From: an uncultured virus (IMG/VR IMGVR_UViG_2706795104_000001)
Taxonomy: Duplodnaviria > Heunggongvirae > Uroviricota > Caudoviricetes > Herelleviridae
Reading direction: 5' to 3' (one strand)
IMG/VR virus record: IMGVR_UViG_2706795104_000001
Location: 1-64,000 of that record
Length of the DNA: 64,000 nt
Part shown: positions 30,794 to 34,987 of the stretch, piece by piece
Position numbering within the stretch: position 1 is the stretch's first letter
Layout: each line of letters begins with the position of its first letter
Made by a program: the position numbers and the translations under genes
Notes under the pieces: generated by a model
The model's input: only the letters and a program-made list of their open reading frames with translations
Databases searched by the model: none
What the model was told of the DNA's origin: nothing

Positions 30794-30882
30794 GGAAGGG
30801 TACTCAAGTTGGTGAAGAGGTCAGTTTGCTAAACTGATAGTACCTATTACAGGTAGCAAGGGTTCGAACCCCTTTCCTTCCA
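30794..30882 (+). tRNA. tRNA-Ser(GCT)
   Basis: Cloverleaf, TCAGT-TTGCTAA-ACTGA, long variable arm, GGTTCGAACC. Confidence 0.9.
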
Positions 30883-30892
30883 TATTTATTGT

Positions 30893-30966
30893 GAGGGTGT
30901 ACCGAAGCGGCTCAACGGCACAGATTGCAACCCTGTTGTTCGTGGGTTCAAATCCCACCATCCTCT
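30893..30966 (+). tRNA. tRNA-Cys(GCA)
   Basis: Cloverleaf, loop TTGCAAC, GGTTCAAATCC. Confidence 0.88.
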
Positions 30967-31011
30967 TACTAGTGTGTTATAATGAATTTATGTTATAATA
31001 TATACTATAAC

Positions 31012-31087
31012 GTGCTTGTAGCTCAGTCGGTAGAGCTGGTGGCTGTTAACCACTGTGTCGTAGGTTCGATTCCTACCTAGCACGCCA
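31012..31087 (+). tRNA. tRNA-Asn(GTT)
   Basis: Loop CTGTTAA, encoded CCA. Confidence 0.92.
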
Positions 31088-31090
31088 AAT

Positions 31091-31165
31091 GGGGCATTGG
31101 TATATTGGCTATTACTCTTGGCTTCCAACCAAGCAAGGTCGGTTCGATTCCGACATGTCCCTCCA
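31091..31165 (+). tRNA. tRNA-Gly(TCC)
   Basis: CTTGG-CTTCCAA-CCAAG, TCCA end. Confidence 0.92.
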
Positions 31166-31169
31166 TAAC

Positions 31170-31243
31170 GGCTCGTTAGTTTAACGGTAAAATACATGAC
31201 TGTCTATCATGGGTCACGGGTTCAACTCCCGTACGGGTCGCCA
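31170..31243 (+). tRNA. tRNA-Asp(GTC)
   Basis: CATGA-CTGTCTA-TCATG, GCCA end. Confidence 0.9.
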
Positions 31244-31252
31244 TTCTATCGT

Positions 31253-31326
31253 GGCGCATTGGTGAAGCGGTTTAACACACTCGGCTTTCTACCGAGGATG
31301 CGTGGGTTCGATCCCCACATGCGCTA
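31253..31326 (+). tRNA. tRNA-Glu(TTC)
   Basis: CTCGG-CTTTCTA-CCGAG. Confidence 0.88.
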
Positions 31327-31329
31327 TAA

Positions 31330-31402
31330 ATCCCTTTAGCCAAGTGGTCAAGGCAGTAGGATTATGTCCTGCGTAGCGGAGGTTCGACTCCTCCAAGGGG
31401 CG
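31330..31402 (+). tRNA. tRNA with TAT anticodon (nominally Ile, AUA-reading)
   Basis: GTAGG-ATTATGT-CCTGC, GGTTCGACTCC; 1-72 mismatch. Confidence 0.7.
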
Positions 31403-31411
31403 CACAATGGT

Positions 31412-31519
31412 TTCCTGTGTATCCGTGCCCAAAACAGGAATATTCACCTAACTATTCGAGTTAGGCTATGGACGTATGAGCCATGCGTTGTGACGGGGCA
31501 ACGATAAAACCCGTCTTTT
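31412..31519 (+). ncRNA. unidentified four-hairpin structured RNA between tRNAs
   Basis: TTCCTGT/ACAGGAA, CCTAACT/AGTTAGG, ATGG/CCAT, GACGGG/CCCGTC. Confidence 0.4.
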
Positions 31520-31523
31520 CTTT

Positions 31524-31597
31524 ACCCCTTTAGCCAAGTGGACTAAGGCAACGGGCTTCTATCCCGAAGATCGTGGGTTCAAATCCTACAGGGGGTG
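31524..31597 (+). tRNA. tRNA-Arg(TCT)
   Basis: Loop CTTCTAT, GGTTCAAATCC. Confidence 0.88.
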
Positions 31598-31599
31598 TA

Positions 31600-31682
31600 A
31601 ACTTAGTCGGGAAGAGTGTCAGGTTAGCACACTTCACCGTAGGTGTTGTAGGTAGGGTTCAAATCCCGTTGTCGGCTAAGTT
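31600..31682 (+). ncRNA. degenerate tRNA-like RNA (pseudo-tRNA) with an 11-bp terminal stem
   Basis: AACTTAGTCGG/TCGGCTAAGTT, D-like arm, GGGTTCAAATCCC T-loop, broken anticodon stem. Confidence 0.5.
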
Positions 31683-31688
31683 AAATAT

Positions 31689-31773
31689 CAGGGAATACTC
31701 AAACGGTTAAGAGGGTAGTCTTGAAAACTACTAGGCGTGAAAGCGTGCGGGGGTTCGAATCCCTCTTCCTCGG
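31689..31773 (+). tRNA. tRNA-Ser(TGA)
   Basis: GTAGT-CTTGAAA-ACTAC, long variable arm. Confidence 0.88.
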
Positions 31774-31808
31774 CTTAAAAAAAAAATTAAAAAACTTTGA
31801 TTATATGC

Positions 31809-31837
31809 TTGCATCAAGTTACAGGCTATGATACAAT
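31809..31837 (+). promoter_or_regulatory. sigmaA-type promoter inside the tRNA cluster
   Basis: TTGCAT-17-TACAAT with extended TG and A-tract UP element. Confidence 0.7.
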
Positions 31838-31854
31838 GATTACAAGTTAAACAT

Positions 31855-31928
31855 TTCGGTGTGGACAAACTGGTAAAGTCGTCAGGCTTTGACCCTGAAG
31901 TTTGGAGGTTCGACCCCTTCCACCGAAG
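31855..31928 (+). tRNA. tRNA-Gln(TTG)
   Basis: TCAGG-CTTTGAC-CCTGA. Confidence 0.9.
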
Positions 31929-32006
31929 TATATCCAAGGTCACACCTTGGAAACTAAGCCTAATAGCCTACAATGGTTAACGTGACCACTTATTAGACTT
32001 AGTTTC

Positions 32007-32080
32007 CAGTGTGTGGTGAAGTGGCTTAACACGGACGACTGTGGATCGTTCATTCGCAGGTTCGAATCCTGTCATGCTGA
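32007..32080 (+). tRNA. tRNA-His(GTG)
   Basis: GACGA-CTGTGGA-TCGTT, GGTTCGAATCC. Confidence 0.85.
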
Positions 32081-32176
32081 TACTTCAATTGATTCCTCCT
32101 ACAGGGATGCGTCCTGAGTAGGTTAAAACTTTTAGGTGCTGAAGTCACTGGGTTATAGGTACCTAGCTCTTATTAC

Positions 32177-32249
32177 GTGGATATAGGCTAGTTGGTCAGT
32201 CACTCCGTTTGGGGCGGAGGTCACGCAGGTTCGACTCCTGCTATCCGCA
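32177..32249 (+). tRNA. tRNA-Pro(TGG)
   Basis: CTCCG-TTTGGGG-CGGAG. Confidence 0.88.
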
Positions 32250-32350
32250 TTTTGTTTATGTTTAGGTTTTTCACGTAGGGTGTTCATCATTAGGAGAAAT
32301 ATAATTTGGGGGATGAACGTTTGATATGGGCTGGCAACCTTACACAATAT

Positions 32351-32425
32351 GGATAGATAGCTGAGATGGATTAGCGAGTGGTTGAAACCCACTAGAGGTT
32401 GGATCGTTACCAACTCTGTCCACCA
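32351..32425 (+). tRNA. tRNA-Phe(GAA)
   Basis: AGTGG-TTGAAAC-CCACT, atypical T-loop ATCGTTA, ACCA end. Confidence 0.82.
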
Positions 32426-32431
32426 AAATAT

Positions 32432-32514
32432 GGGCGTGCAATCATTGGAGAGATAAGCTGACTGTAAATCAGTGGTCATTGACTGTGAAGGTTCGAATCC
32501 TTCCATTCCCACCA
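32432..32514 (+). tRNA. tRNA-Tyr(GTA)
   Basis: GCTGA-CTGTAAA-TCAGT, variable arm, ACCA end. Confidence 0.9.
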
Positions 32515-32515
32515 T

Positions 32516-32602
32516 ATCGGAATGTTGGAATTGGTAGACATAACGGACTTAAAATCCGTTGCTCCTTGGGGCGTGAGGGTTCGAGTCCCTCTTCCGATAC
32601 CA
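32516..32602 (+). tRNA. tRNA-Leu(TAA)
   Basis: ACGGA-CTTAAAA-TCCGT, ACCA end. Confidence 0.92.
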
Positions 32603-32603
32603 T

Positions 32604-32678
32604 ACTAGTGTAGCTCAGAGGTAGAGCAGTGTCTTGATAAGGCATTGGTCGTTGGTTCAATCCCAACCACTAGTACCA
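32604..32678 (+). tRNA. tRNA-Ile(GAT)
   Basis: GTGTC-TTGATAA-GGCAT, ACCA end. Confidence 0.92.
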
Positions 32679-32686
32679 TTTAATAT

Positions 32687-32768
32687 GTCGGAGTGTTGGA
32701 ACTGGTATACATGCGGCACTTAGAATGCCGTGCCTTCGGGATTGAGGGTTCGACTCCCTCCTTCGACA
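32687..32768 (+). tRNA. tRNA-Leu(TAG)
   Basis: CGGCA-CTTAGAA-TGCCG. Confidence 0.9.
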
Positions 32769-32774
32769 TCAAAT

Positions 32775-32826
32775 GCAGAGTGCAATTAACGATTGTCTAT
32801 GAGGTCGTTCCTCACATTCTGCTCCA
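32775..32826 (+). ncRNA. 52-nt mini-tRNA-like RNA with CCA end
   Basis: GCAGAGTG/CATTCTGC acceptor stem plus TCCA; only two small internal hairpins. Confidence 0.6.
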
Positions 32827-32832
32827 TATTAT

Positions 32833-32916
32833 GGGGGAGAGAAACTTAAAGGCAAGAGGTAAGCCAGTGGTCTCCAAAACCACCGTTAAGAGGTTCGATT
32901 CCTCCCTCCCCTGCCA
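32833..32916 (+). tRNA. tRNA-Trp(CCA)
   Basis: GTGGT-CTCCAAA-ACCAC, enlarged D region, GCCA end. Confidence 0.82.
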
Positions 32917-32921
32917 AATAT

Positions 32922-32993
32922 ACGGTTATAGCTCAGTGGTAGAGTGTGGGTCTCATAAGCCCAAGGTCGATGGTTCAATCCCATCTAACCGTA
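32922..32993 (+). tRNA. tRNA-Met/Ile2(CAT)
   Basis: TGGGT-CTCATAA-GCCCA. Confidence 0.88.
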
Positions 32994-33039
32994 TCGCTTT
33001 AGTGTGTTTAAAATTGATAATTTAATAGGGGGAATTGAA

Positions 33040-33669
33040 ATGGAAAAGATGTCAGTTCAACGTGGTTTAATGGAGTTAAAAACTTTAGGTAATCGTATCA
33101 CTCGTGCCACTCAACAACCTTTCGTATCTTTCTACGTAGGTGATAAGGGTGCTCCACAAGGATTCAAGACACCTGAAGAGTTCTCCGCATACGCTCAAGG
33201 TCGTTATGACTCTGCTACGGACTTAATTAAGCGCAGAAACGCAATTAAAGCTGCGATTATCCAGTCTAATGCAGTAACTAAGGTTACTGTAGCAGGAAAG
33301 TCAATGACAGTTGCAGAAGCAATTGACCGTAAGGACTCAATTGTTCACGAGAAAGTTCTCTTACAACAACTGCAATCGCAGTTCAGTGAGATTACTAGAC
33401 GTGTAGTTTCTCAACAACAAGTGTTAGACGCTCGAATTGATAAGGTTTTAGAAGAGGAAGGTGGCAAAGACCGTAAGGTTGATGACGCTGACCACGCTCG
33501 CATTGTAAAAAATGCAGAGTCTCGCTACAAACCAAATCTAGTTGATCCTATCGGTATCCGTAAAGTGATTGAACAGATGGAAGAAGACATTAGCTCATTC
33601 GAGTTAGATGTTGATGCTTCATTATCTGAAATCAACGCTCGTACGGACATCGAGTTCGAAGTGAAATAG
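33040..33669 (+). CDS. DIP1984/DUF6847-like long helical-hairpin protein
   Basis: ATG after GGGGGA; MSV..GL.ELK.L..RI, I..SNA.T.V...G.MTVAEAI..K, D..LSE.NA.T.IE. Confidence 0.75.
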   Translation: MEKMSVQRGLMELKTLGNRITRATQQPFVSFYVGDKGAPQGFKTPEEFSAYAQGRYDSATDLIKRRNAIKAAIIQSNAVTKVTVAGKSMTVAEAIDRKDSIVHEKVLLQQLQSQFSEITRRVVSQQQVLDARIDKVLEEEGGKDRKVDDADHARIVKNAESRYKPNLVDPIGIRKVIEQMEEDISSFELDVDASLSEINARTDIEFEVK

Positions 33670-33703
33670 TAGGTTGACTCCCTCTCTTTGAGAGGGACAA
33701 GCC

Positions 33704-34057
33704 TTTGCTGACACACCGACACTTACCAACCAAATGCGTCCCTTACTAACGATATAGTGAGAAGATACTTTTGACAAATTCGTCAAAACTAAGCGATAGC
33801 CAAAATGGGGCTAATACATATATGGTACCTTCAGTGGAAGGAACAGGTGTAAGAAGCTCAAAGCTAATTGTTCAAAGGTTGACAAGTTAAAAGTTCTTAT
33901 GCGTTCAAAGGTAATAGTTGTACAGGTCAAAGAGGGCAAGATGAGTCTCCATGAATGAGAGACTAGCTCGTAAAGGTCGATAAAATCCACTGTAAAAAGG
34001 TTTGCGAGAGTTCATTTGTGGTCTCCGTAGGTGCCTGGTGGCTGGTGTGGTGGCAAA
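33704..34057 (+). ncRNA. candidate large structured ncRNA with tandem AAAG-core repeats
   Basis: 5'/3' closing helices, several hairpins, possible pseudoknot, no substantial ORF, ends at a terminator. Confidence 0.6.
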
Positions 34058-34066
34058 TAGATGTAA

Positions 34067-34091
34067 GAGACCCTTCGGGGTCTTTTTTTTT
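34067..34091 (+). terminator. intrinsic terminator
   Basis: GAGACCC-TTCG-GGGTCTT plus T-tract. Confidence 0.9.
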
Positions 34092-34147
34092 CGTGTGTAG
34101 AAGTCCTATATTACATTGGTAAGACCAAATGTGAAAGGTGGGACTCT

Positions 34148-34987
34148 ATGTTACAAGTTAAATCATTTAGTGGAGCAACACACGCAGAACAGATTCAAAA
34201 TGCAATCAATGCCGCAAGTGTAAGCACAACAGACAAAACTGTACAACTAGAAGAGTTTAAAGACTACTACATCACTGCACCTATCATCGTTAAGAAGAAT
34301 GTTGAGTTACTGTTTGGTTACGGGACAAAGCTAGTTGTAGGTGGGAACGTACGTGTACTGGAACTAGAGACGAACGCATCCGTAACAAATCCGTACATCG
34401 CTATTGACGATCCGACATTCGATTCTGCGGTCTTCTACCTAGACGGTAAGAACAAGTTCTATAACACATGGAATAGAACATCTATTAAGAACGGTGTTAT
34501 TGTCAACTGGTCAGGTTCCTACAAAGGTGTGGGTATATCATGCTTCGCAGGTGGAACTGGTCACGAAGTATCATTCGTAAACTTCTTCGACATCAAGATT
34601 AGTGGTCTACGTAGAGGAATCGAATTAAGAGCAACAAAACCAACTACAGGTATGGCTTGGGTTAACGCAAACAGATTCAGAGACATCTCACTAGACGACT
34701 GCGTTGAAATGATTGTACTTGAATCATCTGAAACGATCCCAAATGAATGTAGTGGAAACATGTTCTTCGGACTTCAAATCCAACCTTCTGCTATGACAAC
34801 AACAGTACTACGAGTGAACGGGCAGCAGAACCGATTCGAGGGTATGCTTTGGGATACACACTTGATATCAACTCCTGGTGCATTCGTTCAATTTACGAAT
34901 ACAAGTTCATACAACAAGATAGATTTTAACGGATCGGTGCCGACTGCAAAAGTATCCGATGCAGGTGCATTCAATAAAGTACTTTAA
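34148..34987 (+). CDS. pectin-lyase-like right-handed beta-helix protein
   Basis: N-terminal IQNAINAA helix followed by Asn/Gly-rich beta-helix rungs. Confidence 0.65.
   Translation: MLQVKSFSGATHAEQIQNAINAASVSTTDKTVQLEEFKDYYITAPIIVKKNVELLFGYGTKLVVGGNVRVLELETNASVTNPYIAIDDPTFDSAVFYLDGKNKFYNTWNRTSIKNGVIVNWSGSYKGVGISCFAGGTGHEVSFVNFFDIKISGLRRGIELRATKPTTGMAWVNANRFRDISLDDCVEMIVLESSETIPNECSGNMFFGLQIQPSAMTTTVLRVNGQQNRFEGMLWDTHLISTPGAFVQFTNTSSYNKIDFNGSVPTAKVSDAGAFNKVL

What the first reader, a model, noticed from the sequence alone, without database searches (positions are those of the whole stretch)
33040..34091. Candidate new protein-RNA system: DIP1984/DUF6847-like gene followed by a ~350-nt structured ncRNA with tandem AAAG repeats
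Seen: the last gene of the tRNA operon is followed by ~400 nt without a substantial ORF, ending in a strong terminator. The ends pair: TTTGCTGACACACCG (33704) with TGGTGTGGTGGCAAA (to 34057), and ACCAACCAAATG (33725) with CATTTGTGGT (34013). Internal hairpins lie at 33743-60, 33769-88, 33797-813, 33828-41 and 33944-64. CAGTGGA (33832) can pair with TCCACTG (33986) as a pseudoknot or switch. A largely unpaired core carries GCTCAAAG (33856), GTTCAAAGGT (33870), GTTAAAAGTT (33886), GTTCAAAGGT (33903), GGTCAAAG (33925) and CGTAAAGGT (33969). From recalled motifs, the protein is a long helical-hairpin family of unknown function. Inference: a co-transcribed ribonucleoprotein in which the RNA is a multivalent scaffold, antitoxin or sponge for the oligomeric protein, possibly tied to tRNA/translation counter-defence. 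I cannot match the RNA to any family I know.
Basis: partly seen in the sequence, partly recalled or inferred. Interest (0 to 1): 0.9.

Follow-up and report, generated by a model that had tools for sequence, protein, structure and literature searches.

The report
Phage heptad-repeat RNA with partner protein
Behind a small helical-protein gene, this Bacillus phage encodes a real, intricately folded 354-base RNA carrying a row of seven-base AAAG units; the same gene-plus-RNA pair recurs in T5-like and many other phages and in Bacillus-type chromosomes, which points to an undescribed RNA-protein particle.

Summary
Window 33704-34057 (+) is a conserved structured RNA directly behind a 209-aa gene (33040-33669), at the end of an 18-tRNA array in a Caeruleovirus-like Bacillus phage.

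- **Catalogue status:** it is in no Rfam 15 family.
- **Fold:** CCACU 33987-91 instead pairs with GGUGG 34037-41, in a helix that is 99% paired and covaries at 4 of 5 pairs across 64 distinct sequences.
- **Repeats:** the AAAG repeats belong to a 7-nt periodic array. Across 49 RNAs, AAG at distance 7 occurs 72 times against 10.6 expected.
- **Linkage:** a covariance model of the 3' domain finds one hit downstream of the gene in 76 of 76 phage loci and 78 of 80 bacterial loci. It finds one hit per whole genome. In 91 Bacillaceae genomes, 16 have both RNA and gene, 1 has a decayed RNA relic only, 0 have the gene only, and 74 have neither.
- **Protein:** it is a remote look-alike of PDB 3kdq and matches Pfam DUF6847 only weakly.
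- **Function:** unknown. I favour an RNP in which protein copies bind the heptad array.

This scan has reported related DIP1984-like protein + heptad-RNA modules on other DNA. I found nothing in print.

The parts
30794..32995 (+). Array of 18 tRNA genes directly upstream on the same strand. Context: the likely shared transcript.
   Evidence: ARAGORN; Rfam tRNA matches. Contigs of a ~93% relative in RNA-seq libraries span array, gene and RNA.
33040..33669 (+). Gene of the 209-aa partner protein: a long helical hairpin with a small conserved beta tip.
   Evidence: ORF. phrog_1491 at E 1.7e-81. No Pfam or NCBIfam hit. AF2 pLDDT 93.8. 3kdq is the best fold match.
33678..33697 (+). Hairpin P0 between the stop codon and the RNA (CUCCCUCUC / GAGAGGGA). 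Clade-specific and lacking a U tail.
   Evidence: alifold pairs 18-23 with 28-33, with changes on one or both sides.
33704..34057 (+). The structured RNA, 354 nt from the first to the last base of closing helix P1.
33704..33718 (+). P1 5' strand; pairs with 34043-34057.
   Evidence: 13 pairs; pair 52:413 is CG in 13 and UA in 4 sequences. Family-wide, matched strands give -20.8 and mismatched -10.4 kcal/mol.
33720..33726 (+). P2 5' strand (CACUUAC); pairs with 34027-34033.
   Evidence: 58:399 is CG in 15 and AU in 2. Family test p 0.014.
33729..33736 (+). P3 5' strand (ACCAAAUG). It pairs with 34013-34022, which is the loop of hairpin P3a, so this is a pseudoknot.
   Evidence: 70:383 is AU in 13 and GC in 4. 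Family test p 0.0003, with unrelated sequences keeping the pairing.
33737..33761 (+). 5' H-type pseudoknot. S1 is CGU 33737-39 with ACG 33749-51.
   Evidence: S2 (79:96 is UA in 13 and AU in 4). S1 and the pseudoknot layout were read by eye from the family alignments and not counted formally.
33769..33841 (+). Three variable hairpins: 33769-75/33782-88, 33798-801/33809-12 and 33828-32/33837-41.
   Evidence: The first is (109:128 is UA in 9, GC in 6, AU in 2). The other two show compensatory changes read by eye. In other clades this region holds tRNA genes or T-arm-like hairpins.
33847..33940 (+). Array of about 12 units of 7-10 nt, each ending in AAG, AG or UG. Unit ends are at 33853, 63, 70, 77, 86, 93, 33901, 10, 17, 25, 32 and 40.
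   Evidence: for unit ends and spacings. Family periodicity. Unit consensus N-U-N-A-A-A-G.
33944..33964 (+). Variable hairpin P8 (AGUCUC / GAGACU).
   Evidence: different stem sequences in Deep Blue and Tsarbombavirus, read by eye.
33983..33991 (+). Conserved AAAUC motif, then the 5' strand of helix Hx (CCACU 33987-91).
   Evidence: In 44 of 44 sequences, A, A and C are invariant and the other A and U are kept in at least 90%. Hx.
34006..34025 (+). Hairpin P3a (GAGA 34006-09 / UCUC 34022-25). Its loop carries the P3 3' strand.
   Evidence: 83% of cells paired, and 4 of 4 pairs change on both sides.
34027..34044 (+). P2 3' strand (34027-33), Hx 3' strand GGUGG (34037-41), and the GCUG motif (34041-44).
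   Evidence: GCUG was my search anchor, so its invariance in A3 is by construction. Some bacterial copies read GCAG.
34043..34057 (+). P1 3' strand.
34065..34095 (+). Intrinsic terminator: a 9-bp stem followed by a U run.
   Evidence: A terminator hairpin sits at this place in all 17 aligned phages, with different stem sequences.

Best explanation
The finding is one copy of a widespread two-part module: a gene for a ~205-aa helical protein, followed on the same transcript by a ~230-400-nt structured RNA.

**Shown**
- The RNA has a conserved, covarying fold. A long closing stack (P1, P2) brings the ends together. Two pseudoknots lock the core: P3 with the loop of P3a, and helix Hx, which joins the AAAUC motif to the bases before GCUG. 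An H-type pseudoknot sits near the 5' end, and a variable region follows it.
- The core holds out an A-rich row of 7-nt units (N-U-N-A-A-A-G), about 12 in this phage.
- RNA and gene are inherited together in phages of many hosts and in Bacillota chromosomes.

**Inferred**
- The RNA is made as the tail of the gene's mRNA. In phages that transcript is the tRNA-operon transcript, and the RNA's ends are trimmed by the tRNA-processing enzymes where tRNA genes abut it.
- The locked ends make the RNA stable.
- Several copies of the protein bind the heptad array, one per unit or pair of units, through the protein's conserved basic helices and beta tip. The result would be a ribonucleoprotein particle.

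**Not known**
- What the particle does. Because it occurs both in lytic phages and free-standing in chromosomes, my best guess is that it sequesters or delivers something in RNA or translation metabolism. I do not favour a role as part of the virion.
For: **RNA is real**
- z -4.1 on the + strand against -1.85 on the - strand.
- In 17 phages, 71 predicted pairs, 9 with changes on both sides.
- Family helix Hx is 99.4% paired, with pair types CG 33/UA 31, UA 27/AU 17/CG 9/UG 7/GC 4, and GC 21/AU 14/UA 14/CG 12. Overall 92.5% of cells pair against 65.3% in shuffles (0 of 500 reach it) and 28-48% when the partner is slid.
- P1 duplex energy is -20.8 matched against -10.4 mismatched, over 21 unrelated P1 sequences, p 1.8e-14.
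- P3 p 0.0003 and P2 p 0.014.
- G-U pairs in the helices fit only the + strand read as RNA.

**Heptads**
- AAG pairs at distances 7, 14 and 21: 72, 50 and 49 observed against about 10 expected (z 17.7, 12.3, 12.4).
- U at unit position 2 in 55 of 67 units.

**Linkage**
- Model R1 gives 76 hits in 76 phage loci. Each is on the + strand downstream of the gene, with none elsewhere in 333 kb.
- 78 of 80 bacterial loci, none used to build the model.
- One hit per genome in 5 of 5 phage records and 4 of 5 bacterial genomes.
- In 91 genomes: both in 16, RNA only in 1, protein only in 0, neither in 74. The single RNA-only case is a deletion relic.
- Five of 16 Bacillus phages have a different downstream gene yet keep the RNA.

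**Same transcript**
- P1 starts a median of 12.5 nt after the stop codon.
- A terminator follows the RNA.

**tRNA link**
- 34 of 60 loci have tRNA genes in the 1.5-2 kb flanks, all on the same strand.
- In six loci a tRNA starts 7-20 nt after P1, and in two a tRNA lies inside the RNA.

**Protein**
- A confident helical model. The family holds 2209 clusters of uniform length.
Against: - Nothing here shows that the protein touches the RNA or forms oligomers.
- No RNA ends or abundance are known. Only contigs from RNA-seq libraries cover the stretch, and these can contain DNA.
- The array may be partly base-paired: the single-sequence MFE pairs much of it.
- In this window alone the AAAG excess is weak (29 of 1000 shuffles reach it).
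- The unit consensus at positions 6-7 was imposed by my chain rule, and position 5 was favoured by it.
- The P1 test used loci preselected at -15 kcal/mol or better.
- P2 support is modest.
- An RNA this tightly tied to its gene could act only in cis.
Confidence: 0.6

Rival explanations
1. The RNA is a purely cis-acting 3' UTR. The folded RNA controls the decay or translation of the upstream gene's own mRNA, for example as an exonuclease block or as an autoregulatory site for the protein, and has no life of its own.
For: - The RNA starts a median of 12.5 nt after the stop codon, so a terminating ribosome would overlap P1.
- It is always on the same strand and unit, followed by a terminator.
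- RNA and gene are lost together in the one decayed locus.
Against: - 230-400 nt with three pseudoknots and a dozen repeats is far more than known 3' stabilisers need.
- The RNA's 3' half is more conserved than the gene between phage genera.
- tRNA genes inside or abutting the RNA imply that it is cut free of the mRNA.
- This reading is compatible with, not exclusive of, an RNP.
Confidence: 0.15
2. The module is a toxin-antitoxin-like or defence/counter-defence pair. Either the protein is harmful and the repeat RNA neutralises it, or the RNA is a decoy that soaks up a host nuclease or RNA-binding protein during infection.
For: - It is a two-part, self-contained module scattered among unrelated chromosomal sites, large plasmids and phages.
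- It has patchy presence within one bacterial family: 16 of 91 genomes.
- A repeat RNA beside a protein gene recalls type III systems.
Against: - No PADLOC family matches: 0 hits for the window protein, and only E 0.005 or worse for homologues.
- The protein is a helical hairpin, not a nuclease fold.
- The gene order is the reverse of ToxIN, and the unit is 7 nt rather than ~36 nt.
- In the Bacillus pumilus-group genomes I examined, it sits at one conserved site between a permease gene and an Ig-like gene. That pattern looks vertically inherited.
Confidence: 0.12
3. The RNA has a tRNA-directed function. It would be a scaffold or decoy that binds tRNAs or tRNA-targeting enzymes, which would explain its place in phage tRNA arrays.
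For: - tRNA genes lie within 2 kb in 34 of 60 loci, all on the same strand. In two loci a tRNA lies inside the RNA, and T-arm-like hairpins occur in its variable region.
- The unit Y-U-N-A-A-A-G has the length and U33-like second base of an anticodon loop. This is my own reading and is untested.
Against: - 26 of 60 loci have no tRNA nearby.
- The bacterial copies I examined lie between transporter and surface-protein genes.
- Sharing strong stable-RNA promoters and processing signals would explain the co-location equally well.
Confidence: 0.08
4. The stretch is a DNA-level element (iterons, an origin, or protein-binding sites), or a member of an already described RNA family that the scans missed.
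For: Short direct repeats are typical of iterons. The Bc431v3 record annotates a SigF-like promoter inside the homologous stretch.
Against: - Covariation keeps Watson-Crick and G-U pairs on one strand only.
- Folding is asymmetric between the two strands.
- No Rfam match in the window, in 5 distant phages or in 10 bacterial loci, even at E up to 1-10. The only match inside any module RNA stretch is a sub-threshold RyhB-like hit (25 against 55 bits) over a terminator.
Confidence: 0.03

Closest known systems
DIP1984-like protein + heptad-RNA modules reported earlier by this scan (e1-6049446, e1-5711421, e1-5808267, e1-5621310, e1-5784771). These are internal AI notes, not publications.
   Same: A small helical 3kdq/DUF6847-like protein gene is followed by a closed, pseudoknotted RNA that is in no catalogue and carries motifs spaced 7 nt apart. 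Gene and RNA always travel together, and some copies lie beside tRNA genes.
   Different: - Those RNAs are 155-280 nt and carry UG or G/U-rich units. They occur in jumbo or freshwater phages and in archaeal or bacterial loci.
- This one is 230-400 nt with N-U-N-A-A-A-G units and its own AAAUC...GCUG core.
- This family reaches cultured model phages (T5-like AKFV33, Lactococcus 949-like, Bacillus Bastillevirinae) and Bacillaceae chromosomes.
- I did not have their sequences, so homology between the RNAs is untested.
ROOL and GOLLD, large ornate RNAs of phages and Bacillota. For 10.1101/2024.12.08.627333 I saw only the search listing and the start of the abstract. Their tRNA adjacency is recalled, not taken from a call.
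   Same: Large, pseudoknotted, covarying RNAs of unknown function. They are found in phages and Firmicutes and often sit next to tRNA genes.
   Different: - No Rfam match to either family.
- This RNA is smaller, carries a single-stranded-looking repeat array, and has a dedicated protein gene.
- By that abstract, ROOL and GOLLD form RNA-only assemblies.
HutP-binding hut leader and TRAP-binding trp leader RNAs (recalled from memory)
   Same: Short purine-G motifs repeated at a fixed spacing (UAG every 7 nt for HutP) and read by a protein oligomer. This is what the module may work like.
   Different: - Those are 5' leaders that switch a terminator, with 3-11 triplets and beta-rich ring proteins.
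- This array sits inside a large folded RNA 3' of the gene, and the partner protein is helical.
CsrB/RsmZ-type sponge RNAs and type III toxin-antitoxin RNAs such as ToxI (recalled from memory)
   Same: A non-coding RNA presents many copies of one short site and titrates a protein.
   Different: - The Csr motif is GGA in hairpin loops, and its protein is encoded elsewhere.
- ToxI consists of ~36-nt repeats upstream of a nuclease toxin.
- Neither the motif, the gene order nor the protein fold matches this module.
Stable RNAs of unknown function in phage tRNA clusters, such as T4 species 1 and 2 (rnaC, rnaD). Recalled from memory and named in note e1-5784771.
   Same: Non-tRNA stable RNAs encoded within a phage tRNA operon and presumably released by tRNA-processing enzymes.
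   Different: Those are about 120-140 nt with no reported partner protein or repeats. Their sequences were not compared here.

Membership tests
Any Rfam 15 family (including tmRNA, RNase P RNA, ROOL, GOLLD, T-box) | A covariance-model match at the family's gathering score | tested here: not met
   - Window at gathering threshold: 19 matches, all tRNA.
- 33600-34200 at E up to 10: best are Atu_C8 at 16 against 50 bits and T-box at 12 against 93 bits.
- 5 distant phage loci and 10 bacterial loci: no match within the module RNA except a sub-threshold RyhB-like hit (25 against 55 bits) over a terminator. A skipping-rope match in L106 lies downstream of the RNA.
- ARAGORN finds no tmRNA.
Pfam DUF6847 (PF20935) / NCBI 'DIP1984 family' | The protein scores above the curated cut-off of the family model | tested here: not met
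   - The window protein has 0 Pfam families at E up to 0.1 and 0 NCBIfam families at E up to 1.
- 8 of 71 homologues touch DUF6847, best E 0.005. That is no better than an unrelated family, LYRM2-like, which also gets 8 of 71.
Pfam DUF6847 / 3kdq structural family | Same fold as the solved member 3kdq over most of its length | tested here: met
   - VIA-align Z 11.4, with 150 of 152 residues aligned, rmsd 7.1 and 17% identity. The next chain scores Z 7.5.
- Foldseek E 2.7e-3, probability 1.0, TM 0.43/0.55.
- Profile against the PDB: E 0.053, with the conserved SNAvT...mTvAeA block aligned.
- That 3kdq is the protein called DIP1984 is recalled and also stated in earlier notes; no tool confirmed it here.
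PHROG 1491 (labelled 'tail fiber protein') | A full-length profile match | tested here: met
   E 1.7e-81, residues 1-207 on profile positions 2-210 of 211. I distrust the label. The homologue in T5-like AKFV33 lies among early-region genes, and bacterial copies lie between a permease gene and surface-protein genes.
Type III toxin-antitoxin (ToxIN-like) | A tandem RNA repeat array upstream of an endoribonuclease toxin gene, with a terminator between them | tested here: not met
   The RNA lies downstream of the gene with no terminator between them. The unit is 7 nt. The protein is an all-helical hairpin with no PADLOC or Pfam nuclease match.
The new RNA family defined here (model R1 plus P1) | An AAAUC motif, helix Hx to the bases before GCUG, hairpin P3a, and closing helix P1 to a segment just after the gene's stop codon | tested here: met
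   Window hit at 33957-34057: 65.5 bits, E 1.6e-9. Hx and P3a are at the coordinates given under parts. P1 energy is -19.1 kcal/mol.

The most novel reading that the evidence does not exclude
DIP1984-like helical proteins and their heptad-repeat RNAs form a previously unrecognised, ancient class of ribonucleoprotein shared by bacteria and phages of both Gram types. Protein protomers would line up one per 7-nt unit on a pseudoknot-locked RNA, rather as a nucleocapsid does. In large lytic phages the particle is made from the tRNA operon, and it would act on the host's RNA or translation machinery. One example would be as a decoy that absorbs anticodon-loop-directed or other RNA-directed defences.
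Probability: 0.12. Interest if true: 0.95.

Novelty: categorically new. Interest (0 to 1): 0.85.

Why it matters
If the pairing is functional, this is a common RNA-protein particle that has gone unnoticed. The protein family has 2209 clusters at 50% identity and occurs in 741 deposited phage genomes.

- **It can be studied now.** It is present in tractable systems: T5-like coliphages, Lactococcus 949-like phages, Bacillus thuringiensis phages and non-pathogenic Bacillus pumilus-group strains.
- **It gives a gene a testable partner.** The gene is annotated 'tail fiber' or 'hypothetical' in hundreds of records.
- **It adds a complex pseudoknotted fold** to the short list of large orphan RNAs.
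- **It links to an old puzzle.** Phage tRNA clusters are known to carry extra stable RNAs of unknown function.
- **It has immediate annotation value.** A ~350-nt 'empty' gap in these genomes is a gene.

Tried and rejected
Rejected. Its 5' partner varies among 92%-identical relatives, while the 3' partner is invariant and covaries with 34037-41.
- **Local hairpin GCC 34033-35 / GGC 34040-42.** RNAalifold predicted it on the 17 phages. The family-wide helix Hx replaces it.
- **AAAUC paired with GGUUU.** It conflicts with Hx at C33987 and is invariant, so it is left undecided.
- **RNase P RNA and tmRNA.** I considered both because of the closing helix and pseudoknots. There is no Rfam or ARAGORN match, no NCCA end and no T arm at the 3' end.
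- **Whole-RNA covariance model.** Not attempted. At 388 or more columns it exceeds what calibration allows, so only the 100-position 3' domain was modelled.
- **Family-wide MAFFT alignment of whole RNAs.** It gave no usable consensus outside the two ends.
- **ORF-gap script.** Too noisy because of chance ORFs; not used.
- **RNA-seq.** Of the four runs laid, contigs of a ~93% relative from three soil RNA-seq libraries (three study codes) and one run of uncertain type cover the stretch. They give no ends, strand or level.
- **Protein atlas.** Only unnamed viral clusters. The nearest named cluster has DUF6847 on 16% of members, at score 0.88.
- **Literature.** Five searches were run:
  - DIP1984, DUF6847, T5.085, phrog_1491
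  - T5, noncoding RNA, tRNA genes
  - candidate structured RNAs in phages
  - T5 transcriptome, ncRNA
  - septicolysin, 3KDQ, DUF6847

  None gave a description of this RNA or of the protein's function. The main text of Fremin et al. 2023 (PMC10690425, passages read) does not name it.
Full report
**Setting**

The window is part of a 152,778-bp virus record judged 96% complete. At DNA level it is about 92% identical over the finding to Bacillus phages Hobo, BM15, Bc431v3 and JBP901 (Herelleviridae, Bastillevirinae, Caeruleovirus). Eighteen tRNA genes lie at 30794-32995 on the + strand. They are followed by an ORF at 33040-33669, a stretch without a + strand ORF of 60 aa or more, a tail-spike-like gene from 34148 (phrog_3783) and the portal gene.

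**The observation**

- The + strand of 33670-34095 folds at -130.6 kcal/mol, against -109.2 +/- 5.2 for 100 dinucleotide shuffles (z -4.1, none as low). The opposite strand gives z -1.85.
- An intrinsic terminator lies at 34065-34086.
- Rfam 15 finds only tRNAs in the window at gathering thresholds. In 33600-34200 it finds nothing better than E 2.3 with lax filters.

**Close relatives**

I fetched the homologous stretch from 16 phages of two genera, Caeruleovirus and Tsarbombavirus, and aligned them with the window (17 sequences).
- The non-coding stretch is conserved, with 77% mean column identity. Its 3' third is almost invariant between genera, although the flanking gene is only 55-70% identical at protein level.
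- RNAalifold predicts 71 pairs, 9 of them with changes on both sides.
- In 5 of the 16 phages the tail-spike gene is absent and another gene follows, yet the RNA stays with the upstream gene.

**The protein**

- The window protein has no Pfam or NCBIfam match. It matches phrog_1491, labelled 'tail fiber', at E 1.7e-81.
- The family is large and uniform in length. There are 2209 clusters at 50% identity with E up to 0.001. There are 1177 of 1320 candidates in the 90% collection, and none of the 120 listed carries a Pfam domain.
- tblastn finds it in 741 phage records: Salmonella and Escherichia T5-like phages, and phages of Pseudomonas, Vibrio, Klebsiella, Erwinia, Lactococcus, Aeromonas and Clostridioides.
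- AlphaFold2 with 71 homologues gives a confident model (pLDDT 93.8). It shows long helices at 45-79 and 91-141 joined by a small beta hairpin that carries the most conserved residues.
- The only solved structure that stands out is 3kdq, an uncharacterised Corynebacterium diphtheriae protein. VIA-align gives Z 11.4 with 150 of 152 residues aligned, and the next chain scores 7.5. Foldseek gives E 2.7e-3 and the profile search E 0.053.
- Eight of 71 homologues touch Pfam DUF6847 weakly.

**A family far beyond Bacillus phages**

- In five distant phages the gene is followed by 362-486 nt without an annotated gene. These are T5-like AKFV33 (whose gene is annotated as similar to T5.085), Pseudomonas Y1-MI, Vibrio Cody, Clostridioides LIBA6276 and Lactococcus WRP3. 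No Rfam family matches within those RNA stretches apart from a sub-threshold RyhB-like hit over a terminator.
- I collected 80 loci from IMG/VR. In 72 of 85 loci examined, a GCUG lies 260-420 nt after the stop codon. It starts a 12-20-bp helix with a segment that ends 20-50 nt after the stop.
- The helix sequences are unrelated between clades. For 21 distinct ones, the duplex energy of true partners is -20.8 kcal/mol, against -10.4 for partners swapped between loci (p 1.8e-14). Caveat: the loci were preselected at -15 or better.

**The conserved core**

I aligned the last ~100 nt of 44 representatives.
- An AAAUC motif that I had not selected for is present in all 44.
- RNAalifold found a 5-bp helix (Hx) between the bases right after AAAU and the bases that end in the first G of GCUG. 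In the window this is CCACU 33987-91 with GGUGG 34037-41.
- I built a covariance model from this alignment (R1, 100 positions). On the alignment it produced (64 distinct sequences), Hx is 99.4% paired and 4 of its 5 pairs change on both sides. A hairpin, P3a (window 34006-09 with 34022-25), is 83% paired and all 4 of its pairs change.
- Overall 92.5% of cells pair, against 65.3% in shuffles (0 of 500 reach it) and 28-48% when the partners are slid by 1-3 columns.
- The loop of P3a carries the 3' strand of P3, and the 3' strand of P2 lies inside Hx, so the core is pseudoknotted. Swapped-partner tests support P3 (p 0.0003) and, more weakly, P2 (p 0.014). Many unrelated sequence pairs keep P3.
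- Near the 5' end, most clades show an H-type pseudoknot whose two stems differ in sequence between clades. I read this by eye and did not count it.

**The repeats**

A note from an earlier finding of this scan prompted me to test a 7-nt register.
- Over 49 representative RNAs, AAG recurs at distances 7, 14 and 21 a total of 72, 50 and 49 times, against about 10 expected from dinucleotide shuffles (z 17.7, 12.3, 12.4).
- The 7-nt units read N-U-N-A-A-A-G, with U at position 2 in 55 of 67 units. The final AG was required by my chaining rule.
- In the window, about 12 units of 7-10 nt end at 33853...33940.
- In the window alone, AAAG is only mildly enriched over its own composition (6 against 3.2; 29 of 1000 shuffles reach 6).

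**Linkage of RNA and gene**

- R1 gives exactly one hit in each of 76 phage sources. Every hit is on the gene's strand and downstream of the gene, with none elsewhere in 333 kb. 74 have E up to 0.001, and 32 of the sources were not in the model.
- In 80 loci from bacterial genomes found with the protein alone, 78 have a hit in the same place. The other two have a shortened downstream flank: one locus holds only about 310 nt after the gene, the other about 590 nt.
- Whole-genome scans give one hit per record in 5 of 5 phage genomes and in 4 of 5 bacterial genomes of 3-7 Mb. The fifth copy is a weak scorer.
- In all 91 genomes held for one bacterial family, the RNA is found in 17 and the protein in 16. 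Sixteen have both, side by side on one strand, and 74 have neither.
- The single RNA-only genome keeps just the 3' domain, between the same two flanking genes that bracket the intact module in a relative. It is a deletion relic.
- From the P1 5' start to the end of the model hit, the RNA measures 229-403 nt (median 322). It begins a median of 12.5 nt after the stop codon. Bacterial copies end in a terminator.

**Context**

- The two bacterial copies I examined lie between ordinary chromosomal genes, not in evident prophages. One lies between an amino-acid permease gene and Ig-like protein genes. The other follows an MFS transporter gene.
- In phages, 34 of 60 loci have tRNA genes within the 1.5-2 kb flanks, all on the same strand. 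In six loci a tRNA starts 7-20 nt after P1, and in two a tRNA lies inside the RNA's variable region. This suggests maturation by the tRNA-processing enzymes.
- Contigs from three soil RNA-seq libraries carry a ~93% relative of the whole tRNA-gene-RNA stretch in one piece. That is compatible with transcription but does not prove it.

**What it is**

I conclude that the finding is a genuine member of a large, apparently undescribed family of structured RNAs that is bound genetically to one protein family. The most economical mechanism is a ribonucleoprotein. The pseudoknot-locked core protects and presents the heptad array, and several copies of the helical protein bind that array. Binding, stoichiometry and function are inferences.

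The rivals are set out with their evidence in the Rival explanations section: a purely cis-acting 3' UTR, a toxin-antitoxin or decoy module, a tRNA-directed role, and a DNA element or known RNA family. The last is essentially excluded by strand-specific covariation with G-U pairs and by the Rfam scans.

**Novelty**

- Five literature searches and passages of the one large phage-RNA survey gave no description.
- This scan has itself reported related modules on other DNA. They pair a DIP1984-like protein with an RNA carrying 7-nt-spaced motifs, in jumbo and freshwater phages and in archaeal or bacterial loci. I treat those notes as leads.
- What this window adds is a distinct AAAG-heptad subfamily with a defined pseudoknotted core, its presence in cultured model phages and in Bacillaceae chromosomes, a genome-wide co-occurrence test, and the embedding in tRNA operons.

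Noticed in passing
L106:2519-2647 (Paenibacillus xylaniclasticus locus): A skipping-rope RNA (Rfam RF02924, 54.1 bits against 36.7 gathering) lies about 80 nt after the end of the module RNA (R1 hit 2338-2438). Two orphan RNAs sit side by side.
   Followed up: no
L183:1532-1632 (G023:C4:201131-201231): Only the 3' domain of the RNA remains here, squeezed between the permease gene and the Ig-like gene that flank the intact module in G001. The protein gene and the 5' two thirds of the RNA are deleted.
   Followed up: yes
L043:2203-2277 and L085:2213-2287: tRNA genes are called inside the variable region of the RNA, between the 5' pseudoknot and the heptad array. If they are excised, the RNA would be split into two pieces held together by P1-P3.
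   Followed up: partly
window 32850-32905: A partial tRNA-like match (Rfam tRNA, 29.5 bits, model positions 9-63) lies between tRNA-Leu and tRNA-Met. ARAGORN does not call it. Bc431v3 annotates a possible tRNA-Trp pseudogene at the equivalent place.
   Followed up: no
L001:3802-3831 (Bc431v3 record): The depositors annotated a SigF-like promoter inside the 3' part of the RNA, upstream of the tail-spike gene. It overlaps the nearly invariant P2/Hx/P1 strands, so the conservation there may serve the RNA and not a promoter.
   Followed up: no
window 33040-33669 and homologues in public records: RefSeq and PHROG label this protein 'tail fiber protein'. Its genomic contexts (the early region of T5-like phages, bacterial chromosomes) and its helical 3kdq-like fold make that label doubtful.
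   Followed up: partly
plasmid records H95-H109: The protein also occurs on 18 large non-mobilizable plasmids of 130 kb to 1.1 Mb from Clostridioides, Clostridium, Priestia, Bacillus, Rossellomorea and Deinococcus. Several may be phage-plasmids. They were not examined.
   Followed up: no
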